A DNA stretch of 64,000 nt. Source: Solirubrobacterales bacterium. Its GTDB lineage: Bacteria > Actinomycetota > Thermoleophilia > Solirubrobacterales > 70-9. The notes beneath the pieces are model-generated. The model had not been told where the DNA came from. It did no database searches and was given only the letters and a program-made list of their open reading frames with translations. This document shows positions 56,893 to 64,000 of the stretch, one piece after another (positions within the stretch are counted from its first letter, which is position 1; each line of letters opens with the position of its first letter). Location: NCBI GenBank assembly GCA_036494495.1, contig DASXOF010000133.1, positions 3,315 through 67,314 on the forward strand. The letters are read 5' to 3'. The position numbers and the translations under genes are program-made.

Positions 56893-58032
56893 TCAGCGAC
56901 TGCCGAGGGTGGCGCTGACGGTCCCGGTCTCTTCGCCGCGGACCACGCTCAGCTCGACTTCCTCGCCGGCTTCGTCGGCGCCGACGACCTGCGCCAGTTC
57001 TTCCATGCCGCCGAGCTGCTGGCCGTCGATCGCGACGATCACGTCGCCGGCTTCGATCCCGACTTCGGCCGCGGGGCCGCCCTGGACCGCTTCCTGGACC
57101 AGGACCCCGGATTCCACCGGCAGGCCGTACTGCTGGGCGAGCGCCGGGGTGATCGAGGCGCCGCTGATGCCGAGGAAGCCGCCGGAGCCGGCCGGGGCCG
57201 AGCCGCTTTCGGGGGTGGCGGCCGAGCCGCCCGCCTCGAGCTGGGCGATCTCTTCCTTCGCGGTGTCGATCGGGATCGCGAAGCCGATGCCGACGTTGCC
57301 CTCGGAGCCTTCGCCGCCGGTCTCGATCTGCGAGTTGATGCCGATCACTTCGCCGTCGGCGTTGATCAGCGGGCCGCCGGAGTTGCCGGGGTTGATCGCC
57401 GCGTCGGTCTGGATCACGTTGTCGATCGCGTTTCCGTTCGGCGCCTGGATTTCGCGCTGCAGGGCGGAGACGATGCCGCTGGTGACGGTCCGTTCGAGGT
57501 CGAACGGGTTGCCGATCGCGACCACCGGGTCGCCGACTTCGACCTCCGAGGAGTTGCCGAGCTTCAGCGGGTGGAGCTTCGAGGCCGGCGCTTCGACCCG
57601 CAGCAGGGCCAGGTCGGAGTTGGGTTCGGTGCCGACCACCGTCGCCGGGTAGGCGGTCCCTTCCGATTCGAGCTTGACCGAGATTTCGCTGCCGCCTTCG
57701 ACCACGTGGTTGTTGGTCAGGACGTGGCCTTCGGAGTCGAGGACGATCCCCGAGCCCGAGGCGACACCTTCGGCCTGGCGCGATTCGATGAAGGCGACCC
57801 CGTCGCCGTCGGCCTTGTAGATCTGGTTGATCACATTGCTGGATTCTTCGCTGCTGACCGAGGCCGCCGGCCTCGCTTGGCCGGCGCCGACGACGGCGGT
57901 CGGGTTGGTGGATGAGCTGGCGCTGCCGGTGCCGAGCAGTCCGGTCGCGATCGCGACCACCGCGGCAACGGCAACGATCGCTCCGCCGAGGAAGGCGGAA
58001 CCGAACGTGTTGGCACTTCTCTTCTTGGGCAT
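56893..58032 (-). CDS. htrA: HtrA/DegP-family serine protease with PDZ domain
   Basis: The product has a TM anchor, the catalytic segments TNNHVV and GNSGGPL, and a C-terminal PDZ domain (GASITPALAQQYGLP...GDVIVAIDG). Confidence 0.88.
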   Translation of the reverse strand: MPKKRSANTFGSAFLGGAIVAVAAVVAIATGLLGTGSASSSTNPTAVVGAGQARPAASVSSEESSNVINQIYKADGDGVAFIESRQAEGVASGSGIVLDSEGHVLTNNHVVEGGSEISVKLESEGTAYPATVVGTEPNSDLALLRVEAPASKLHPLKLGNSSEVEVGDPVVAIGNPFDLERTVTSGIVSALQREIQAPNGNAIDNVIQTDAAINPGNSGGPLINADGEVIGINSQIETGGEGSEGNVGIGFAIPIDTAKEEIAQLEAGGSAATPESGSAPAGSGGFLGISGASITPALAQQYGLPVESGVLVQEAVQGGPAAEVGIEAGDVIVAIDGQQLGGMEELAQVVGADEAGEEVELSVVRGEETGTVSATLGSR

Positions 58033-58053
58033 GCCCCCAGGGTCGGGGGCATG
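58030..58053 (-). promoter_or_regulatory. 9-bp GC hairpin that contains the htrA start codon
   Basis: The mRNA sense reads CAUGCCCCC-GACCCU-GGGGGCAUG. The 3' arm contains the AUG (58032-58030) and the G-run immediately 5' of it. Confidence 0.4.
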
Positions 58054-58164
58054 CCTGCGCCGTCGCCTAAAGAAATGAGAAGCACTTCTTAAAAGGTTGC
58101 GAAGCGTTTCCTAAAGGGGCGAGCCGAAACCGGCTTCGGGCGCGCATTCGGTGACAATGCGGCG

Positions 58165-59754
58165 ATGCTCGGCGTGCTTCTCGTCTCGATCTCGTTGGCC
58201 CTGGCCGCCTTCGGCGCCGACGCGGCGCCGGCGCCGGCCGAACCGGGCTCGCCGCCGGCACTGAGCGTCAGCGGCAACCGGCTCGTCGACGCGAACGGCA
58301 ACACGGTGCGGCTGCTCGGCGTCAACCGGGTCAGCCCGGAGTACGCCTGCACCTTCGGCGAGATCGGCTCGGGGCCGGAAGCAGGCTTTCCCGGCTACAA
58401 CCCGCTGACCCCCGCCGACGCGGCGGCGATCGCGGCCTGGCACCCGACCGCGGTGCGGGTGCCGCTGAACGAGGACTGCTGGCTCGGCCAGAACGGGATG
58501 CCGACCCAGGGCCTCAGCGCCGCCACCTACCGCGAAGCGATCGTCGCGTACGTCGGCTACCTGCACGCGCGGGGCCTCTACGCGATCCTCGACCTGCACT
58601 GGTCGAACCCGCTGAACCTGCCCTCCGGCGAGGGCCTTCACCCGATGCCCGACCAGCAGGCGCCGGCCTTCTGGAAATCGGTCGCGGAAGCGTTCGCCGG
58701 CGACGGCGCGGTCGTCTTCGACGCCTTCAACGAGCCGTATGACCCGGCGACCCACGGCGACCCGAGCCACCCTGTGAGCTGGAGCTGCTGGCGCGACGGC
58801 GGCTGCCAGGTCCCGGCCGCTCCGGACACCCAGCCTCCTAACCCCGGCCAGACCTACACCGCCACCGGCATGCAGCAGATCGTCAGCGCGATCCGCTCGA
58901 CCGGCTCGCGCCAGCCGATCATGCTGGGCGGGCTCGAATACGCCAACGACCTCAGCGGCTGGCTGGCCCACGAGCCGACCGACCCGGCAGGCGCCCTCCT
59001 CGCCTCCTTCCACAACTACAGCGGCCAGGAATGCGACGACGAAGCGTGCTGGAACGGGACGGTCGCACCGGTCGCCGCGGCGGTCCCGGTCCTCACCGGC
59101 GAGTTCGGCGAGACCGACTGCCCGCCATCCGGCACCGACCCGAGCAACTTCGACAACACCTTCATGCGCTGGGCCGACGCCCACGGCGTCGGCTACCTGG
59201 GCTGGGGCTGGGTGATCCCGGACCCGCCCCGCACCTGCGCGACGCCGTACCTGATCTCCAACTACGACGGGACCCCCGTCGACCCCAACGGCGTCGCCCT
59301 GCACGACCACCTGGCGCAGCTGTGGGCGGCGGCCCATGCTGCCGGCGCCGGCAGCGGCGCCGCGACCTCGGCTCCGACCGTCGCCACTCCCGGCGCCCGC
59401 TCCTCGAGGTCATCCCGGAAGATCGCCACCGCCCTCGCCGCCTTCCTGCGACGCGCCGGCGAGCCGCCGAGCGCCGCGAAGCTGCTGCGCGCGAACGGCT
59501 GGAGGGCGAAGTTCGCGGCGCCGAGCGGCGGCCTCTTCCTCGCCCGCTGGCAGCTGCGGAGCGGCAAGGCGCTGGCCCGCGGGGGCCGCGGCTTCGGAGC
59601 GCCCTCGACGGCGACGATCTGGCTGCGCCTGACCCCGGCCGGGCGCAGGGCGCTCGCCCGCCATCCCCACCTCAGCGCCCGGCTCGTCGCCTCGTTCCTT
59701 CCCCGCAGCGGGGCAGCCGAGGTGCGCCGCGCCCGCATCTCCCCCGCGCCGTAG
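58165..59754 (+). CDS. glycoside hydrolase family 5 (cellulase-like) secreted protein with basic C-terminal extension
   Basis: The product has a signal peptide. The acid/base Glu is in FDAFNEPY and the nucleophile Glu is in LTGEFGETDC. About 130 aa of Arg/Ala-rich tail follow. Confidence 0.8.
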   Translation: MLGVLLVSISLALAAFGADAAPAPAEPGSPPALSVSGNRLVDANGNTVRLLGVNRVSPEYACTFGEIGSGPEAGFPGYNPLTPADAAAIAAWHPTAVRVPLNEDCWLGQNGMPTQGLSAATYREAIVAYVGYLHARGLYAILDLHWSNPLNLPSGEGLHPMPDQQAPAFWKSVAEAFAGDGAVVFDAFNEPYDPATHGDPSHPVSWSCWRDGGCQVPAAPDTQPPNPGQTYTATGMQQIVSAIRSTGSRQPIMLGGLEYANDLSGWLAHEPTDPAGALLASFHNYSGQECDDEACWNGTVAPVAAAVPVLTGEFGETDCPPSGTDPSNFDNTFMRWADAHGVGYLGWGWVIPDPPRTCATPYLISNYDGTPVDPNGVALHDHLAQLWAAAHAAGAGSGAATSAPTVATPGARSSRSSRKIATALAAFLRRAGEPPSAAKLLRANGWRAKFAAPSGGLFLARWQLRSGKALARGGRGFGAPSTATIWLRLTPAGRRALARHPHLSARLVASFLPRSGAAEVRRARISPAP

Positions 59755-59880
59755 AGAAGGGTTCTCCTCGAATCAGGGGAGGTTCTTCTCAGATCCTTTC
59801 CGAACCCCGGCCAGCGCCGCCGGCGTCGACTACGATCGCCGCGCAGGGGAGTAATCGGTCAGGGAACGGGGAGGCGGGCA

Positions 59881-60834
59881 ATGGCTTTGCGACGATTGCG
59901 TACGGGGCAGCTCTGGAAGATCTGCGTTTGCGCGGTGGCGCTGGCCGCTGCTCTTGCGGCAGCGGTCGGGGCGGCCGAGGCGAAGGCGGACTCGCCGGTA
60001 CTGGAAATCGTCGCTCCCGCCCTCCCCGTCAGCTTCACCGCCGAAGGTGGCGCGGTGACCGCGGCGATGACCGACTTCGACACCGTCGTGCACTGCACCG
60101 GGTCCCACGGCGAAGGTGCGATCGTCGGCCCGCGCGCCGCCATCTCGAACTACTTCTTCACCGGCTGCACCACGCAGGGGGGCACCGCCGGCGGCGCCAA
60201 ATGCAAATCCGAAAGCGCCAACGCGGAAGAAATCAGGACCGGGGCGATCGAAGCCGAGCTCGTCTTCATCTCCCAGGCCCGGGATGAAGTCGGGATGCTC
60301 CTCAACCCGCACGGCGGCGTCTACATGGACTTCGAATGCGGCAGCGAAGACGTCAAGGCGATCGGCTCCTTCCTCTCGCCGGTCGGCCCGCTCAACCAGC
60401 GGACCAGCTCCTTCTCGGCGACCCTCGCCCGCTCCGGCACCCTGCAGATCCCGAGCGAATACGAAAACGCCTTCGGCGACAGGCTGAAGGCGCTTCCGAC
60501 CGGCGAACGCGAAGGCCAGCCGGCGGCCGCGACCGGGGTCGAACTGGCCTTCGCCATCCACCCGAGCATGCCGCTCGAAGTCAAGGCCCTCACCGGGGCG
60601 GAAGTCGAAGCCAGGCGGCACGATCAGGAAGCCGCGGCGAAGAAGCGCGAGGACGAAGAAGCCGCGGCCAGGAAGCGCCTGGAAGAGGAACTGGCGGCGC
60701 AGAGGAGCCTCCTCGCCCGCGAGCGCAAGCTCTCGAAGGCGCTCGCGCGCTGCCAGAAGGTCGCCTCGAAGGGCAAGCGGGCGAAGTGCGTGCACCGCGC
60801 CAAGCGGCGGTACGGCATCCACCTGCAGATCTAG
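59881..60834 (+). CDS. secreted hypothetical protein with C-terminal charged coiled coil
   Basis: A signal peptide (VALAAALAAAVGAAEA) precedes a Cys-containing domain. The tail reads EARRHDQEAAAKKREDEEAAARKRLEEELAAQR.... Confidence 0.55.
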   Translation: MALRRLRTGQLWKICVCAVALAAALAAAVGAAEAKADSPVLEIVAPALPVSFTAEGGAVTAAMTDFDTVVHCTGSHGEGAIVGPRAAISNYFFTGCTTQGGTAGGAKCKSESANAEEIRTGAIEAELVFISQARDEVGMLLNPHGGVYMDFECGSEDVKAIGSFLSPVGPLNQRTSSFSATLARSGTLQIPSEYENAFGDRLKALPTGEREGQPAAATGVELAFAIHPSMPLEVKALTGAEVEARRHDQEAAAKKREDEEAAARKRLEEELAAQRSLLARERKLSKALARCQKVASKGKRAKCVHRAKRRYGIHLQI

Positions 60835-60877
60835 AAACGGGGAGTCGCCGCGCGGCCGGATTAGGATCTCCGGCCTC

Positions 60878-61795
60878 GTGCTGCTCGACGACGCCGACCG
60901 ATCGCCGCTGCGCCGCGGTCGGCGCCGCGCCCTCCTTGCAGCGCTCGCAGCGACCCTCGTCATCTCGGCGGTCCCCGCCGCGGCCACCGGCAGCGCACCG
61001 GGCGGGCCGAGCGCCCGTCCCGTGCCGAGGATCCTCAGCGCCTCGTGGGGCACCAACGACGCAGTCGGCTGCCCGGGCGGCGAGCAGGGGCTCGACAACA
61101 TCCCGGTGACCTTCGACTGGTTCATCCGCCGCGCCTCGATCCAACCCGCCGATTTCCGGATCATCCGCAGCGACGGCAGCGTCGCGACCCCCACCTGCGC
61201 CCTCCAGTTCCCGCCCGATGAGGCCGACGAGGCCCAGACGGTGAACCTGATCGGCGACTTCGGCGACCCGGCGAGCGGCCCGACCCCGGTTGCGGTCCGC
61301 GTGATCGGAGCCCTCCAGGGCAAAGCCCCCGGCGCACCTGCGTGGCGCCCCGTCAAGCGCCTGCCGAAGAGCGAAGTGGACCCGCTCTCCGGCGGCCCCT
61401 ACATCGTCGACGCCTGGACGCTGACGCCGAAGGTCTACCGCGGCGACCGCAACCGCTGCCTGGTCGGCAACACCTTCGTCCGCGTGATGTGGTCGAACGG
61501 CCTCACCGCCTTTCCCAGCGGCGAAGAGGTCGGCGCCCCGGTGCTCGCCTCCTACCGCGCGCTCTACCGGCTGCCGGCCGGCAGGACCGTCGCGATCGCC
61601 CCGCTCGAAGTCGCCGACCTCCACGACCACGAAAGCTCGTTCAACGCCGACAACATGCACGACCTCTGCCTGCCCCGGCCGCCGCACGGAGCGACGCTCA
61701 GCGGCGTGACGATCGCCGCCGGCCTGATCCAGGACCCCAACGGCGACCCGAACCTGGCGCAGAGGTTCAGCGTCCCGCAGCCCGGCCGCGGCTAG
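60878..61795 (+). CDS. secreted hypothetical protein
   Basis: The N-terminus is Tat-like (RRGRRRALLAALAATLVISAVPAAA). The start is GTG and no family was recognised. Confidence 0.5.
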   Translation: MLLDDADRSPLRRGRRRALLAALAATLVISAVPAAATGSAPGGPSARPVPRILSASWGTNDAVGCPGGEQGLDNIPVTFDWFIRRASIQPADFRIIRSDGSVATPTCALQFPPDEADEAQTVNLIGDFGDPASGPTPVAVRVIGALQGKAPGAPAWRPVKRLPKSEVDPLSGGPYIVDAWTLTPKVYRGDRNRCLVGNTFVRVMWSNGLTAFPSGEEVGAPVLASYRALYRLPAGRTVAIAPLEVADLHDHESSFNADNMHDLCLPRPPHGATLSGVTIAAGLIQDPNGDPNLAQRFSVPQPGRG

Positions 61796-62715
61796 CCCGC
61801 CGCCAGATAGCGGGCGAGCGAGTGGCCGATCGGCTGCTCGGTGATCGACTCGTAGTAGCTGAAGGCCGGGCTCGGGTTGACCTCGAAGCAGAAGACCTCG
61901 TCCTCCGGCGTGATCCGCAGGTCGATGCCGGCAAAGGGAAGCTCCAGGTCGGCCGCAAGCTCGACGCAGCGCTCGGCGACCTCGTCCGGCAGCTCCACCG
62001 CCCGCATCTCCGCGCCGCGCCCCGACTGTCGCGCCGCGTAGCGATAGTCGGTCGCCTCGCTCGACACCGCGGTGGCGATCACCTCCTCGCCGATCACGTG
62101 GGCGCGGACGTCGGTGCCCGGCACGTGCGCCTGGAACTGCACCGGGCACCAGCGGATCAACTCGAGGCGCTCGAGGTCGTCCTCGCCGAAGGTCTGGACG
62201 ATCGAGCGGACGCCGCTGATCGACTTGTAGATCACCCGCGGATGGGCGGCGACGAACTCGCGCACCAGCTCCGGCTCGTTGCTGATCAGCGTCTCCGGGA
62301 TCGAGAAGCCGTGTCGGGCGATCAGCTGGGCCTGGTAGGGCTTGGAGCCGTTCGACCCCTGCGGCCGAGAGCGGTTGACGACCCGGCCGGGGGCGATCTC
62401 GAACCAGCGGGTCAGCGTTTCGTGCAGGCGCCGGCAGTGGGCTCGCAGGGGCGAGTCGGCGGGCTCCTCGCGCAGCTCGGGCAGGAAGCGGTCGTCCATC
62501 AGCCGCGTGTAGACGCCGCTCAGCTCGCGCAGGGGATAGACGGAATCGCCGACGCGGAGCGCCCCGTCGACTTCACCGGCGGCGAGCTCGAACTCGAGCG
62601 CCATCGAGGCGAACTGGCGCTGGTTGAAGACGACATGGTCGACTCCCAGCCGCTCGACCTCGCGGACCGCGATCGCCAGCGAGGTCTCCGACGGGATGCC
62701 GCAGAGGAGGATCAT
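61792..62715 (-). CDS. ATP-grasp ligase, microviridin/graspetide-maturase-like (MdnC/MvdD-like)
   Basis: ATG 62715 overlaps the upstream stop (ATGA). By eye the following segments are collinear with MdnC-type enzymes: MILLCGIPSETS..., LSGVYTRL, NGSKPYQAQLIARHGFSIPETLISNEPELVREF, CPVQFQAHVPGTDVRAHVIG, ATDYRY and FAGIDLRITPEDEVFCFEVNPSPAFSYYE. Confidence 0.7.
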   Translation of the reverse strand: MILLCGIPSETSLAIAVREVERLGVDHVVFNQRQFASMALEFELAAGEVDGALRVGDSVYPLRELSGVYTRLMDDRFLPELREEPADSPLRAHCRRLHETLTRWFEIAPGRVVNRSRPQGSNGSKPYQAQLIARHGFSIPETLISNEPELVREFVAAHPRVIYKSISGVRSIVQTFGEDDLERLELIRWCPVQFQAHVPGTDVRAHVIGEEVIATAVSSEATDYRYAARQSGRGAEMRAVELPDEVAERCVELAADLELPFAGIDLRITPEDEVFCFEVNPSPAFSYYESITEQPIGHSLARYLAAG

Positions 62716-63455
62716 CACGCTGCCCTGGCGGTCAGCTCGGCGGCGAGATGGTCGACGAGCTCCTCGCCGCCGACCCGCAGGTCGGGCATGGGGTGGGCTC
62801 CGGCGAACCGCCACTCGCCGCCGCCGTTCAGGTGCAGCTCGACCCCGAGGACGTCGGCGCCGCTCAGCTCGGCGAGGCGCAGGCAGGCCTCGCTCGCCGC
62901 GCCCGGCGGCGCGGCGCCGAACACCGCCCCGCAGGCGACGACCACGTTGCAGTCGGGGATCACCCACCTGGCGCCGTGCCCGTTCTGGTCGTCGGGAACC
63001 CGCACCGCTGGCACCGGCAGCCCCGCCCGGGCAGCGAGCGCGTGCCACTGCAGCGAGTCGAGACTCGGCCCCGAAAGGGCGAACGGGACAGGCCGGTTGA
63101 GGACCGGCCCCGGCATCGCCGTCAGCCAGCTGAGGAAGAGCGCCGAGACCTCCTGCATCGCGTACTCGCGTTCCTCCTCGTGGGACACCGCGAGATGGCC
63201 CATCGGCGGGTGGACGATGCGGTTGAGCATGCCGCGCACCCGGTCGCTGGAGATCGTCCGCCCGTCCGCCACCTCGATCCGCACCGAGGGCTCGCCAGCG
63301 CCCAGCCGGTGCTCGATCGCGGTGGAGCAGGCGAGGCTCTCGGCGCTGACCACCTCGACCGGGTCGAGCCCGCGGCTGCGGAGGCCGCGGGCAACCCAGA
63401 GAGCAGCTTCGTCGCCGGGATGGCAGGCGATCAGCCACATCGCGCTGCCGCTCAA
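62715..63455 (-). CDS. second, divergent ATP-grasp-like/partner protein
   Basis: The 246-aa product carries SLQWHALAARAGLPVP and LGVELHLNGGGEWRFAGAHPMP. TTG 63455 overlaps the upstream stop; the alternative start is ATG 63440. Confidence 0.5.
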   Translation of the reverse strand: MSGSAMWLIACHPGDEAALWVARGLRSRGLDPVEVVSAESLACSTAIEHRLGAGEPSVRIEVADGRTISSDRVRGMLNRIVHPPMGHLAVSHEEEREYAMQEVSALFLSWLTAMPGPVLNRPVPFALSGPSLDSLQWHALAARAGLPVPAVRVPDDQNGHGARWVIPDCNVVVACGAVFGAAPPGAASEACLRLAELSGADVLGVELHLNGGGEWRFAGAHPMPDLRVGGEELVDHLAAELTARAA

Positions 63456-64000
63456 GCCTCAGACAGCTTGGTGTCGGCCGCCACCTTGGAGCGCATCGCG
63501 GCCGCCGCTTCTTCACCGAGCTTGGGCGCGTCCGGCTCGTTCGTCAGCGCACCTTCGCTCAGGTCGGGCCTGAGCTTGGGATCGATGAAGTGCGAGACCA
63601 GGTTCTCGAGTCGCGTCAGGCGCTGGTCGAGGCCGCCCTCGCCGGTGACCTTCCCCTGTCGGCGGAACATCTTTTCGGGGGTGTCCTGATAAGGCTGCTT
63701 CTGGTCGGGGAACTCGATCTTCTCGTACTTTTCGTCCTTCGTGTCCTTCGTGTCCTTGACTTCCTTGCCGTCCTGCTCGCCCTTCTCGTCCTTGCGCTCC
63801 TTGTCCTTGTCCCCCTTCTCGTCCTTGGTGTCTTTGTAGTCCTTGTCGTCCTTTTCCTGCTTCGGTGCCTCGGCCGGCTCGCCCTTCTCGTCCTTCTCGA
63901 ATTTCTCCCGCTTCTCGTCCTTGTCTTTCTGCTCTCCCTTGGCCTCCTTCTCGCCCTTGTCCAGCTTTTCCTTGCCCCATTCCGTCTCGTCGGTGAGCGC
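63452..64000 (-). CDS. Lys/Asp/Glu/Thr-rich protein, partial (N-terminus beyond window); candidate ATP-grasp substrate/precursor
   Basis: The frame of track ORF 63452..63670 stays open with high GC3 up to the window edge. It reads ...KDYKDTKDEKGDKDKERKDEKGEQDGKEVKDTKDTKDEKYEKIEFPDQKQPYQDTPEKMFRRQGKV...LTRLENLVSHFIDPKL...RSKVAADTKLSEA. A 72-aa product from ATG 63670 is the alternative. Confidence 0.5.
   Translation of the reverse strand, partial: ALTDETEWGKEKLDKGEKEAKGEQKDKDEKREKFEKDEKGEPAEAPKQEKDDKDYKDTKDEKGDKDKERKDEKGEQDGKEVKDTKDTKDEKYEKIEFPDQKQPYQDTPEKMFRRQGKVTGEGGLDQRLTRLENLVSHFIDPKLRPDLSEGALTNEPDAPKLGEEAAAAMRSKVAADTKLSEA

What the first reader, a model, noticed from the sequence alone, without database searches (positions are those of the whole stretch)
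61792..64000. Graspetide-type ATP-grasp pair translationally coupled to a Lys/Asp/Glu/Thr-rich ORF
Three minus-strand genes are chained by 4-nt overlaps (TTGA at 63452-63455 and ATGA at 62715-62718).

The last gene encodes an ATP-grasp protein that is collinear by eye with microviridin-type maturases (MdnC/MvdD). The shared elements are the N-terminal MILL..S..S segment, the xPETLISNxPExV segment, CPxxFQ, and the C-terminal IDLxxTPxxExxFxEVNP segment. The middle gene encodes a shorter, divergent ATP-grasp-like partner. The first gene encodes a protein extremely rich in exactly the residues that such enzymes cross-link (Thr/Ser to Asp/Glu, and Lys to Asp/Glu). It ends in a predicted helix (LTRLENLVSHFI) followed by an S/T/D/E/K-containing tail.

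Known precursors are short, with an N-terminal leader and C-terminal core. Here the repeat region is long and the gene runs off the window, so the architecture would be atypical.
Basis: partly seen in the sequence, partly recalled or inferred. Interest (0 to 1): 0.75.

Follow-up and report, generated by a model that had tools for sequence, protein, structure and literature searches.

The report
ATP-grasp pair with tagged Lys/Glu-repeat protein
A three-gene module found in hundreds of mostly soil and freshwater bacterial species pairs a peptide-cyclising type of enzyme and its inactive twin with a neighbouring Lys/Glu-repeat protein, here fused to a protease, whose conserved C-terminal tag is probably what the enzyme binds and cross-links; that would supply the substrate a 2022 survey could not find.

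Summary
Three co-directional minus-strand genes end at 61792.

Gene 3 is a graspetide-type ATP-grasp ligase. Its best full-length matches are PsnB, MdnC and TIGR04187, and RimK matches only weakly.

Gene 2 is a catalytically dead, shortened paralogue. This rests on an AF2 model, Foldseek and hhalign.

Gene 1 is not a short precursor. Overlapping contigs and orthologues show an approximately 780-aa S8 subtilase, then period-3 Lys/Glu/Asp repeats, then a C-terminal tag, (ERLxxLExxVxxL)HFIxxxxRPDLxxGALxxE.

This trio recurs in at least 573 species across many phyla. About 75 of 76 loci with enough upstream DNA carry a tagged protein directly before the pair. Five of five proteins found by the tag alone have the partner gene directly downstream. 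No fourth gene is conserved.

Most tagged proteins are only repeats plus tag. The long ones tested are nearly all serine proteases of two unrelated folds.

The tag's Glu is invariant (218 of 218). The enzyme keeps PsnB's leader-Phe pocket and its acid-recognising Arg.

Most likely, the heterodimer docks on the tag and makes a side-chain ester or isopeptide at that Glu. It may also cross-link the repeats. The chemistry and the biological role are untested.

This is a new variant of a known kind. It probably corresponds to "branch 8" of Makarova et al. 2022, for which no precursor was predicted.

The parts
63452..64000 (-). 3' end of gene 1: the last 182 codons plus the TGA stop. The full protein is an S8 subtilase, then Lys/Glu/Asp repeats, then a C-terminal tag. 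The rest of the gene lies beyond the window.
   Evidence: Translation. Identical overlapping contigs L001 and L002 extend it by about 370 codons into a Peptidase_S8 domain. The full-length orthologue in L003 is 779 aa, with Peptidase_S8 at 6e-12.
63701..63976 (-). Lys/Asp/Glu repeat region with a three-residue period (xK[DE] triplets). It is a possible multi-site Lys-to-acid cross-linking substrate, or a flexible tether.
   Evidence: K+E+D is 66%. The K-to-K frequency is 0.69, 0.59 and 0.54 at +3, +6 and +9, against 0.00-0.25 off phase. KK neighbours are absent. Apart from five 58-100 aa probable fragments, every one of 218 distinct tagged proteins has such a region.
63593..63631 (-). Amphipathic helix LDQRLTRLENLVS, family consensus ERLxxLExxVxxL, immediately before the tag.
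   Evidence: Alignment A3 of 76 loci. Predicted helical in the AF2 single-sequence model, at low confidence. It is absent in a minority of family members.
63536..63592 (-). Conserved tag HFIDPKLRPDLSEGALTNE, family consensus HFIxxxxRPDLxxGALxxE. It is the proposed docking and modification site.
   Evidence: F, I, R, P, L and E are invariant in 76 loci. Over 218 distinct proteins, Glu is present in 218, His in 212 and Asp in 212. An HMM search of 1.84 billion representative proteins finds 481 clusters, and in the 150 listed hits the match almost always ends within a few dozen residues of the C-terminus.
63536..63538 (-). Codon of the invariant tag Glu (residue 155 of the fragment). It is the proposed acyl-phosphate site.
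   Evidence: Present in 218 of 218 distinct tagged proteins. The enzyme keeps the Arg, R204, that in PsnB (R213) holds the ring-forming Glu (bioRxiv 10.1101/2021.03.09.434688).
63557..63559 (-). Codon of the Ser after RPDL (residue 148), seven residues before the invariant Glu. It is the candidate ester nucleophile.
   Evidence: Ser or Thr at this position in 186 of 218 proteins. Eight proteins have no Ser, Thr or Lys between RPDL and the Glu.
63455..63529 (-). C-terminal extension APKLGEEAAAAMRSKVAADTKLSEA. It looks by eye like a degenerate copy of the motif LSQQLQKxAxDAKQAKDxKDxEK that follows the tag in protease-linked forms.
   Evidence: Tail listing. L003 has KLDKEAAEAKRSKDAKDIEKATEV. Predicted helical at low confidence.
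62715..63440 (-). Gene 2: a 241-aa catalytically dead, shortened ATP-grasp paralogue (the partner). The start is taken as the ATG at 63440. The ORF could begin at the TTG at 63455.
   Evidence: The AF2 model has pLDDT 90.9. Foldseek hits are MdnB, AMdnB, PruB, PsnB, MdnC and CdnC, with E from 3e-10 to 4e-8 and TM 0.62-0.71. hhalign against the active enzyme gives 94.7% probability. That alignment shows three losses: the central domain (YKSISG...RWCPVQFQ), the DYRY hairpin and the Mg ligands (CFEVNP becomes FAGAHP). There is no Pfam or NCBIfam hit.
61792..62715 (-). Gene 3: a 307-aa active graspetide-type ATP-grasp ligase.
   Evidence: Invariant residues are K164, E278 and N280 (ATP/Mg), R71 and R204 (PsnB R72 and R213), D223-Y224-R225 (the DFR loop), and Y163, R183, L184 and F194 of the PsnB leader-Phe pocket; I187 of that pocket is nearly invariant and V192 varies between Val and Thr. 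Identity is 55-80% across phyla.

Best explanation
**What the module is**
The three genes form a self-contained protein-modification module. This part is shown by comparative genomics, and three points are shown directly.
- Gene 3 is an active ligase of the graspetide family.
- Gene 2 is its inactive, shortened paralogue. It is almost always translationally coupled to gene 3.
- The gene just upstream always encodes a protein with period-3 Lys/Glu repeats and the tag HFIxxxxRPDLxxGALxxE. Here an S8 subtilase is fused in front. In most genomes nothing is fused. In others a chymotrypsin-fold serine protease is fused.

**How it most likely works (inferred)**
1. The two ATP-grasp proteins form a heterodimer in place of the usual homodimer.
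2. The tag's invariant Phe sits in the conserved leader-binding pocket of the active subunit.
3. The invariant Glu, 17 residues downstream, is held by Arg204 and phosphorylated by ATP.
4. A side-chain nucleophile then attacks. Most likely this is the Ser or Thr seven residues upstream, giving an 8-residue ester ring. Where that residue is missing, a Lys would attack instead.
5. The same complex may go on to make Lys-Glu/Asp lactams in the repeats.

**Biological role**
The role is unknown. My best guess is a covalently constrained C-terminal loop that regulates or inhibits the fused or a partner serine protease. Known graspetides are serine-protease inhibitors.
For: **Enzyme family**
- Searches place gene 3 with solved graspetide synthetases over its full length.
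- The PsnB residues that bind the leader Phe15 are Y171, I193, L196, V201, F203 and R192. They align with Y163, L184, I187, V192, F194 and R183. Five of these are invariant or nearly so in the family; position 192 varies between Val and Thr.
- PsnB R72 and R213, the latter holding the ring-forming Glu, correspond to R71 and R204.
- The DFR loop is present as DYR (PsnB paper read).

**Partner**
- Searches show a dead ATP-grasp. It keeps the equivalent of R72 (invariant R74).
- It overlaps the ligase start by ATGA in 58 of 66 loci.

**Substrate link**
- At least 573 species carry the ligase.
- About 75 of 76 loci with enough upstream DNA have a tagged protein directly before the partner.
- Five of five proteins found by the tag alone have the partner gene directly downstream. 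In the three contigs with enough complete sequence, the full ligase follows; on L088 only a fragmented ligase gene is called.
- All-against-all clustering finds no fourth conserved gene.

**Tag**
- Glu is present in 218 of 218 proteins and Ser or Thr in 186 of 218.
- The Phe-to-Glu spacing is 17 residues, against 22 in the PsnA2 minimal precursor.

**Precedents**
- Corallotide: KxxxD lactams on a 22-kDa precursor, made by a TIGR04187 enzyme.
- Processive (KxxE)n lactams by MyxF, and an ATP-grasp that works only in complex with others.
Against: - No chemistry has been observed.
- Eight of 218 tags have no Ser, Thr or Lys between RPDL and the Glu. A self-contained Ser-Glu ring therefore cannot be universal.
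- The Asp of RPDL is Asn in two cases.
- The tag lies C-terminal to the repeats, the reverse of the usual leader-then-core order. One protein, P0273, has it on the N-terminal side.
- The scores are far below the curated cut-offs of the named graspetide subfamilies: 127 against 350 bits.
- The protease-regulation idea does not explain why most tagged proteins have no protease domain.
Confidence: 0.6

Rival explanations
1. The tag is only a docking element, a C-terminal 'follower'. The real substrates are the period-3 repeats. The complex would move along them making many Lys-to-Glu/Asp lactams, for example i to i+4, and so turn a disordered K/E region into a stapled, protease-resistant rod or a string of small rings. 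This is compatible with the main explanation. The difference is where the cross-links are.
For: - A K/E/D-rich region is present in every full-length tagged protein.
- It has a strict three-residue period, with K followed by an acid at +4 in 40-48% of cases.
- Corallotide carries five KxxxD lactams on a 22-kDa precursor.
- MyxF processes up to four tandem KxxE motifs in a fixed order.
- P0273 has the tag before the repeats, in the canonical leader-then-core order.
Against: - Repeat number, unit and sequence drift freely, even between close relatives. The ligase, by contrast, is 55-80% identical across phyla.
- Some members have very short repeat regions, for example L046, L054 and L081.
- The 100% conserved Glu, with flanking Pro and Gly, looks like a reacting site rather than a helix used only for docking.
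Confidence: 0.3
2. The activated tag Glu is joined to a Lys on another molecule. The target could be another copy, giving a covalent K/E polymer as an ATP-driven analogue of transglutaminase cross-linking. It could instead be a target protein, a Pup-like conjugation that would tether the fused protease.
For: - Some tags lack any internal nucleophile.
- The proteins are Lys-rich and probably disordered (low confidence).
- No export or processing genes are conserved, and the N-termini I read show no obvious signal peptide, though this was judged by eye and no predictor was run.
- The chemistry, a Glu side-chain acyl phosphate attacked by Lys, is that of PafA with Pup. This point is from my own knowledge.
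Against: - All characterised enzymes of this clade make intramolecular rings.
- Ser or Thr at a fixed spacing from the Glu in 85% of tags argues for a ring.
- No conserved candidate target gene is nearby.
Confidence: 0.1
3. This is the proposal of Makarova et al. 2022 for their branches 7 and 8. The neighbouring peptidases would cut other cellular proteins, encoded elsewhere, to supply peptides for the ATP-grasp. The adjacent protein would then not be the substrate.
For: Stated in PMC8939145. Peptidase domains of two unrelated folds do occur in these loci.
Against: - Most loci have no peptidase at all, only a repeat-plus-tag protein: 143 of 218 are 150-400 aa and 44 are 400 aa or longer.
- The feature shared by all upstream proteins is the tag, not a protease.
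- The tag is as conserved as the enzyme's predicted binding pocket.
Confidence: 0.05
4. The ligase works like RimK. It would add glutamate or other amino acids to the C-terminus or to side chains of the K/E protein, rather than cross-linking it.
For: Pfam reports only the RimK ATP-grasp domain (1.4e-9). Several sources annotate homologues as RimK-like or as glutathione synthase.
Against: - RimK and LysX match only the C-terminal 200 residues, and 25 orders of magnitude more weakly than graspetide synthetases.
- The N-terminal domain, the DxR loop and the leader pocket of graspetide enzymes are all present.
- The C-termini of the tagged proteins are not conserved.
Confidence: 0.05

Closest known systems
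Plesiocin synthetase PsnB with its precursor PsnA2 (group 2 graspetide; PDB 7drm)
   Same: - It is the best solved-structure match over the full length (2.7e-34).
- It shares the leader-Phe pocket residues, the two substrate-binding Arg and the DFR/DYR loop.
- Its substrate has an aromatic docking residue followed about 20 residues later by a ring-forming Glu. The Thr/Ser-to-Glu spacing is similar: TTxxxxEE against SxGALxxE.
   Different: - PsnB is a homodimer. Here a dead paralogue is co-encoded.
- PsnA2 is a short peptide with an N-terminal leader and repeated, well-defined cores.
- Here the substrate is a 130-920 aa protein. The conserved element lies at the C-terminus, and a protease is often fused.
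Microviridin ligases MdnC/MvdD and MdnB/MvdC
   Same: They are collinear over the full length (MdnC 1.7e-31; NCBIfam hits). The products of that family inhibit serine proteases, and here the fused domains are serine proteases.
   Different: - Scores fall far below the equivalog cut-offs: 95 against 475 bits.
- There is no PFFARFL leader and no TxKYPSDWEEY core.
- No GNAT or transporter genes are conserved nearby.
- Only one of the two ATP-grasp proteins is active.
Corallotide (CorA/CorB, graspetide group 15; PMC13097080)
   Same: The precursor is large (about 22 kDa), with repeated Lys...acid motifs (KxxxD) turned into i-to-i+4 lactams by a TIGR04187-type enzyme. The same paper also shows that graspetide synthetases can depend on a partner protein.
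   Different: - The corallotide clusters also encode a 2OG oxygenase and a beta-lactamase, and occur only in Corallococcus.
- The partner shown in that paper, MirC of rosaritide, is a SurA-like chaperone, not an ATP-grasp.
- There are no K/E triplet repeats and no HFI..RPDL..GAL..E tag.
Myxomiditide pathway (MyxF, MyxD1, MyxD2; PMC12848669)
   Same: It makes processive lactams on tandem (KxxE)n motifs. It also shows one ATP-grasp that lacks leader recognition and works only together with other ATP-grasp proteins.
   Different: - All Myx ligases are catalytically competent. Here the partner has lost the nucleotide-binding domain and the Mg ligands.
- The Myx substrate is a short microviridin-type peptide.
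'Branch 8' ATP-grasp loci of Makarova et al. 2022 (PMC8939145)
   Same: That paper describes ATP-grasp loci with peptidases of several unrelated families plus a truncated, inactive ATP-grasp, and no predicted precursor. This matches what is seen here.
   Different: - I could not confirm that the sequences are the same family. The stored supplementary tables are cut off and contain neither our motifs nor our organisms.
- The paper proposes substrates encoded elsewhere.
[quoted passage not shown] The partner here keeps N- and C-terminal parts and lacks the central one.
RimK / LysX alpha-L-glutamate ligases
   Same: They share the ATP-grasp fold and the acyl-phosphate chemistry. Pfam and many annotations call this protein RimK-like.
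   Different: Only the C-terminal 200 residues align, at 5e-9 against 2.7e-34. RimK extends a C-terminal main-chain carboxylate, and the C-termini here are not conserved.

Membership tests
Graspetide (omega-ester/amide peptide) synthetases, ATP-grasp clade of MdnC/PsnB/CdnC | Full-length collinearity with solved members, including the N-terminal pre-ATP-grasp domain, and a better match than to other ATP-grasp families | tested here: met
   The family profile against the PDB gives PsnB 2.7e-34 (profile positions 3-305), MdnC 1.7e-31, CdnC, MdnB, AMdnB and PruB. RimK scores 5e-9, over positions 102-306 only (single sequence).
Graspetide (omega-ester/amide peptide) synthetases, ATP-grasp clade of MdnC/PsnB/CdnC | Conserved Arg pair that binds the core peptide (PsnB R72 and R213) and the DxR (DFR) loop | tested here: met
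   R71 and R204 are invariant, and D223-Y224-R225 is invariant. They align with PsnB chain residues R92, R233 and IDFR, which are native R72, R213 and DFR (roles from bioRxiv 10.1101/2021.03.09.434688, and PMC13097080).
Graspetide (omega-ester/amide peptide) synthetases, ATP-grasp clade of MdnC/PsnB/CdnC | Intact nucleotide and Mg2+ binding residues | tested here: met
   K164 (IYKSISG), E278 and N280 (CFEVNP) are invariant and align with the PsnB equivalents. In the partner these are deleted or replaced.
Graspetide (omega-ester/amide peptide) synthetases, ATP-grasp clade of MdnC/PsnB/CdnC | ATP-dependent loss of water from a ribosomal substrate through a side-chain ester or amide | not testable with these tools
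   This needs co-expression and mass spectrometry.
NCBIfam TIGR04187 / TIGR04184 / TIGR04185 (SAV_5884, MvdD and MvdC maturases) | Score above the curated cut-off | tested here: not met
   127, 95 and 79 bits against cut-offs of 350, 475 and 425. The protein is a relative, not a member of these named subfamilies.
RiPP/graspetide biosynthetic gene cluster in the usual sense | A short precursor peptide with an N-terminal leader and a C-terminal core, usually with a leader peptidase or exporter | tested here: not met
   The associated proteins are 130-920 aa. The conserved element is at the C-terminus. No transporter, peptidase or other fourth gene is conserved in 80 loci. None of the RODEO groups checked (30, 32-36) shows this precursor, and the tag motifs do not occur anywhere in that paper's supplementary files.
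RimK family alpha-L-glutamate ligases | Score above the cut-off and full-length match | tested here: not met
   TIGR00768 scores 60.8 against 143.4 bits, covering residues 100-303 only.
Makarova 2022 'branch 8' ATP-grasp loci | ATP-grasp with a truncated inactive ATP-grasp and peptidases of unrelated families in the same locus | tested here: met
   The partner is shown. S8 and Nal1/chymotrypsin-fold peptidases are shown.
Makarova 2022 'branch 8' ATP-grasp loci | Sequence identity with proteins listed in that branch | tested here: inconclusive
   The supplementary tables and FASTA files are held only in part. No match was found to family motifs or organism names.
Known anti-phage defence systems (PADLOC) | Match to any defence-system protein model | tested here: not met
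   None of the three proteins has a hit. There are no close homologues of the ligase in the phage or plasmid collections.

The most novel reading that the evidence does not exclude
This would be a widespread, previously unrecognised way of modifying whole proteins. A short portable tag (HFIxxxxRPDLxxGALxxE) marks full-size cytoplasmic proteins for ATP-driven side-chain cross-linking by a live/dead ATP-grasp heterodimer. The marked proteins are serine proteases of two folds and Lys/Glu-repeat proteins. The product would not be a secreted peptide natural product. It would be a covalently constrained or polymerised protein, for example a protease switched on or off by an enzyme-installed macrocycle, or an ATP-dependent analogue of transglutaminase cross-linking of K/E-rich proteins.
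Probability: 0.25. Interest if true: 0.85.

Novelty: new variant of a known kind. Interest (0 to 1): 0.66.

Why it matters
**The gap it fills.** Graspetide-type ligases are studied as makers of small cyclic protease inhibitors. A large and very conserved branch of them was left in 2022 without any predicted substrate. It counts at least 573 species and more than 5,000 protein clusters, with 55-80% identity across phyla.

**What this work adds.** The gene next door always carries the same 19-residue tag and a Lys/Glu repeat, whether or not a protease is attached. That gives a concrete substrate candidate, an invariant Glu to mutate and a dead-paralogue partner to test.

**What would follow if confirmed.**
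- The chemistry would extend from peptides to full-size proteins.
- It would give an example of a pseudo-enzyme subunit in this family.
- It would provide a compact tag-and-ligase pair for protein cyclisation or stapling.
- It would open the question of what these abundant K/E-repeat proteins do in soil bacteria.

Tried and rejected
1. **Modelling the ligase-tag complex.** I fused the tag to the ligase with a Gly-Ser linker.
2. **AF2 of the window's gene 1 fragment without an alignment.** The model has mean pLDDT 57.5. I used it only as a weak hint of a helix-loop-helix arrangement.
3. **Word-index search with the tag profile.** It returned only 12 short proteins. The two I looked up (L088, L089) look like frameshifted or truncated gene calls of ordinary tagged proteins. 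The exhaustive HMM search was far more useful.
4. **Looking for this precursor or family in the supplements of Makarova 2022 and Carter 2026.** Nothing was found, and the files are partly truncated.
5. **Defence-system or mobile-element origin.** There are no PADLOC hits and no close relatives on plasmids or phages.
6. **Natural partner-ligase fusions.** The long ORFs in the ligase frame (527-574 aa in the window, L045, L071 and L073) are most simply read as a high-G+C artefact, because in the window the called partner gene lies in a different frame.
7. **A conserved fourth gene.** All-against-all clustering of ORFs from 80 loci found only the three genes and their antisense shadows.
8. **The Asp of RPDL as the reacting acid.** I dropped this idea because it is Asn in Archangium minus and in one other protein.

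Full report
**1. The observation**

The region holds three co-directional minus-strand ORFs.

Gene 2 is 246 aa if it starts at the TTG at 63455. Gene callers on two identical public contigs start it at MWLIAC, and the consensus of 37 homologues likewise begins MWLxLC. That is the ATG at 63440, 11 nt after the gene 1 stop.

The gene 2/gene 3 junction reads GTGATG. The TGA stop shares one base with the conserved ATG. In 58 of 66 related loci the same junction is a 4-nt ATGA overlap.

The gene 1 fragment (63452-64000) is 66% Lys+Glu+Asp over its first 100 residues, in a genome of 73% G+C. It is not Thr-rich (5%).

**2. What gene 1 really is**

Two public contigs carry exactly this locus, L001 and L002. 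They extend gene 1 upstream into a Peptidase_S8 domain with the HGT and GTSSASP motifs.

The full-length orthologue in a related Solirubrobacterales genome (L003) is 779 aa. From N- to C-terminus it has:
- a propeptide-like N-terminus;
- the subtilase domain;
- about 250 residues of Lys/Glu/Asp repeats;
- a helix;
- the tail.

The source name of the identical protein says the window comes from a Solirubrobacterales MAG.

**3. The two ATP-grasp proteins**

Gene 3's best NCBIfam hits are the three graspetide maturase models, each over the full length:
- TIGR04187, 8e-37;
- MvdD, 4.5e-27;
- MvdC, 3.6e-22.

All three are well below their curated cut-offs. rimK_fam scores 1e-16.

Against solved structures, the family profile matches PsnB (2.7e-34), MdnC (1.7e-31), CdnC, MdnB, AMdnB and PruB over the full length. 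RimK matches only over the C-terminal 200 residues, at 5e-9 (single sequence).

I checked the residues that the PsnB study identifies as functional (bioRxiv 10.1101/2021.03.09.434688). They are conserved here:

| PsnB residue(s) | Role | Here |
|---|---|---|
| R72, R213 | substrate binding; R213 holds the ring-forming Glu | R71, R204 (both invariant) |
| DFR loop | needed for activity | D223-Y224-R225 |
| nucleotide Lys | ATP binding | K164 |
| Mg ligands | Mg2+ binding | E278, N280 |
| Y171, I193, L196, V201, F203, R192 | pocket for leader Phe15 | Y163, L184, I187, V192, F194, R183 |

Gene 2 has no Pfam or NCBIfam hit.
- An AF2 model built from 37 homologues has pLDDT 90.9.
- Its top 32 Foldseek hits in the PDB are all graspetide macrocyclases, with E from 3e-10 to 4e-8 and TM 0.62-0.71.
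- Profile-profile comparison with the active enzyme gives 94.7% probability over the full length.
- That comparison shows what is missing: the central nucleotide- and leader-binding domain, the DYR hairpin and the Mg ligands (CFEVNP becomes FAGAHP).
- Gene 2 does keep the equivalent of R72 (invariant R74).

Gene 2 is therefore a catalytically dead paralogue.

**4. Conservation of the trio**

The ligase has more than 5,000 relatives in the 90% clusters. It was found in at least 573 species genomes. These include:
- Actinomycetota;
- Acidobacteriota;
- Alpha- and Betaproteobacteria;
- Chloroflexota;
- Nitrospira;
- Verrucomicrobiota;
- Myxococcota;
- Gemmatimonadota;
- WOR-3.

Identity to the window protein is 55-80%.

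In the 80 loci fetched, the ORF just upstream of the partner ends in the same element in about 75 of the 76 loci with enough upstream sequence. Archangium minus looked like an exception, but it has the element with RPNL in place of RPDL.

Alignment of 76 tags gives invariant F, I, R, P, L and E. H, D, G and A are nearly invariant. The consensus is (ERLxxLExxVxxL)HFIxxxxRPDLxxGALxxE.

Clustering all ORFs of the 80 loci finds no other conserved gene, so there is no conserved transporter and no separate peptidase.

The reverse test also holds.
- A tag profile searched against 1.84 billion representative proteins finds 481 clusters. In the 150 listed hits the tag is almost always close to the C-terminus.
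- All five tag-selected proteins whose contigs I fetched have the partner gene directly downstream.
- The three contigs with enough complete sequence (L091/L092, L093) also carry the full-length ligase. On L088 the ligase gene is called only in fragments.

**5. What the tagged proteins are**

Of 218 distinct tagged proteins:
- 143 are 150-400 aa, consisting of repeats plus tag;
- 44 are 400 aa or longer.

Of the 36 proteins of 390 aa or more that I scanned:
- nine are S8 subtilases;
- most of the rest are chymotrypsin-fold (Nal1-like or trypsin-like) serine proteases;
- six had no assignable domain (L021:4675, L071, P0265, P0298, P0318, P0325).

The repeats have a strict three-residue period. 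The K-to-K frequency peaks at +3, +6 and +9. Neighbouring KK and neighbouring acidic pairs are almost absent. Lys is followed by an acid at +4 in 40-48% of cases.

**6. Mechanism**

Shown:
- the enzyme family and its catalytic integrity;
- the dead partner;
- the tight three-gene association;
- the conservation pattern of the tag.

Inferred:
- The invariant Phe of HFI plays the role of the leader Phe that inserts into the conserved pocket.
- The invariant Glu lies 17 residues later, against 22 in the PsnA2 minimal precursor. It is the residue held by R204 and phosphorylated.
- The nucleophile is most likely the Ser or Thr seven residues before the Glu, which is present in 186 of 218 tags. This spacing resembles the outer ring of plesiocin, whose core motif (TTxxxxEE) I cite from my own knowledge rather than from a paper read here.

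Eight tags have no Ser, Thr or Lys in that stretch. In those cases at least, the nucleophile must lie elsewhere, and the Lys-rich repeats are the obvious source.

There are precedents for repeated Lys-acid lactams on large precursors, and for ATP-grasp enzymes that need partners:
- corallotide and rosaritide (PMC13097080);
- MyxF and MyxD2 (PMC12848669).

I could not model the complex.

**7. Function**

No function is shown. Three facts constrain it:
- the only N-terminal domains I could assign are serine proteases, of two unrelated folds;
- characterised graspetides are typically serine-protease inhibitors;
- the N-termini I read show no obvious signal peptide (judged by eye; no predictor was run), and no exporter is conserved.

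My preferred reading is a cross-linked C-terminal loop that controls a fused or partner protease. It does not explain the majority of family members, which have no protease domain. Structural cross-linking of K/E proteins and Pup-like conjugation remain open.

**8. Relation to the literature**

Makarova et al. 2022 (PMC8939145) describe ATP-grasp 'branch 8'. Its loci have peptidases of several unrelated families and a truncated inactive ATP-grasp. No precursor was predicted, and the authors suggested substrates encoded elsewhere. The present family fits that description. I could not verify sequence identity because the stored supplements are incomplete.

The 2026 RODEO update (PMC13097080) raises the number of graspetide groups to 43 (24 original plus 19 new). 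None of the groups whose co-occurrence tables or example precursors I read (30 and 32-36) shows this precursor, and the tag motifs do not occur in any of that paper's 112 supplementary files.

In the papers I could search and read, the conserved tag is not described, nor is the idea that the peptidases and K/E proteins themselves are the substrates.

**9. Verdict**

It is extended in two ways:
- the 'precursor' is a tagged full-size protein;
- the module is a widespread, highly conserved and uncharacterised variant of the graspetide system.

The interest is moderate to high, because the prediction is sharp and cheap to test.

Noticed in passing
L021:2637-6174 (Nitrospira MAG): Two tagged proteins sit in tandem before a single partner plus ligase pair. 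One is a 659-aa S8 subtilase. The other is a 500-aa protein with only a weak lectin-like hit. One enzyme pair may therefore serve several substrates.
   Followed up: partly
L093:4341-4832 (protein P0273): This 163-aa family member carries the complete tag near its N-terminus. The K/D/E region follows it, and a degenerate second helix (LTHFA, no RPDL) lies at the C-terminus. A MarR-type regulator gene is directly upstream.
   Followed up: partly
N-termini of short tagged proteins, e.g. L010, L014, L016, L019, L034, L054, and P0185, P0188, P0192, P0193: Many repeat-only forms begin with a loosely conserved motif, M-x-[ST]K[PQ]F[EKV]EK[QE]. Most are from the Acidobacteriota loci, but L010 (a betaproteobacterial MAG) and L054 (a Margulisiibacteriota MAG) have it too. 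It could be a second recognition element at the opposite end of the repeats. A strict pattern matched 36 of 164 short proteins, and a looser reading by eye matches more.
   Followed up: partly
Tails of L013, L021, L024, L030, L053, L055, L058, L062, L067, L070; window 63455-63529: Protease-linked forms, and the Archangium repeat-only form, carry a second conserved C-terminal motif after the tag: LSQQLQKxAxDAKQAKDxKDxEK. The window protein appears by eye to have a degenerate version. Its role is unknown, and it contains conserved Lys residues.
   Followed up: no
L003:4626-4898: A 90-aa ORF just upstream of the S8-repeat-tag gene resembles the N-terminal propeptide-like part of that same protein. 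Both end in A(Y)[MV]KP(S/P)AEPP. It may be a duplicated propeptide or inhibitor module.
   Followed up: no
P0262 (647 aa) and L050:5260-6255: Some members contain two or three copies of the ERLxxLE helix, spaced between K/E-rich segments. Only the last copy is followed by HFI..RPDL..GAL..E.
   Followed up: no
window 56893-61795: The genes next to the module appear unrelated to it:
- an HtrA-like trypsin-PDZ protease (56893-58032, minus strand);
- a GH5 cellulase with a long Arg/Ala-rich C-terminal region (58165-59754, plus strand);
- two proteins with no Pfam match (59881-60834 and 60878-61795, plus strand).

The last of these ends one base from the ligase stop codon, so the two genes converge with no gap.
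   Followed up: no
L006:10518-16556 (Gaiellaceae): A caspase-like Peptidase_C14 gene and a CHAT-domain, beta-propeller gene lie a few kb downstream of the module in this genome. They are not conserved in other loci, so this is probably coincidence.
   Followed up: no
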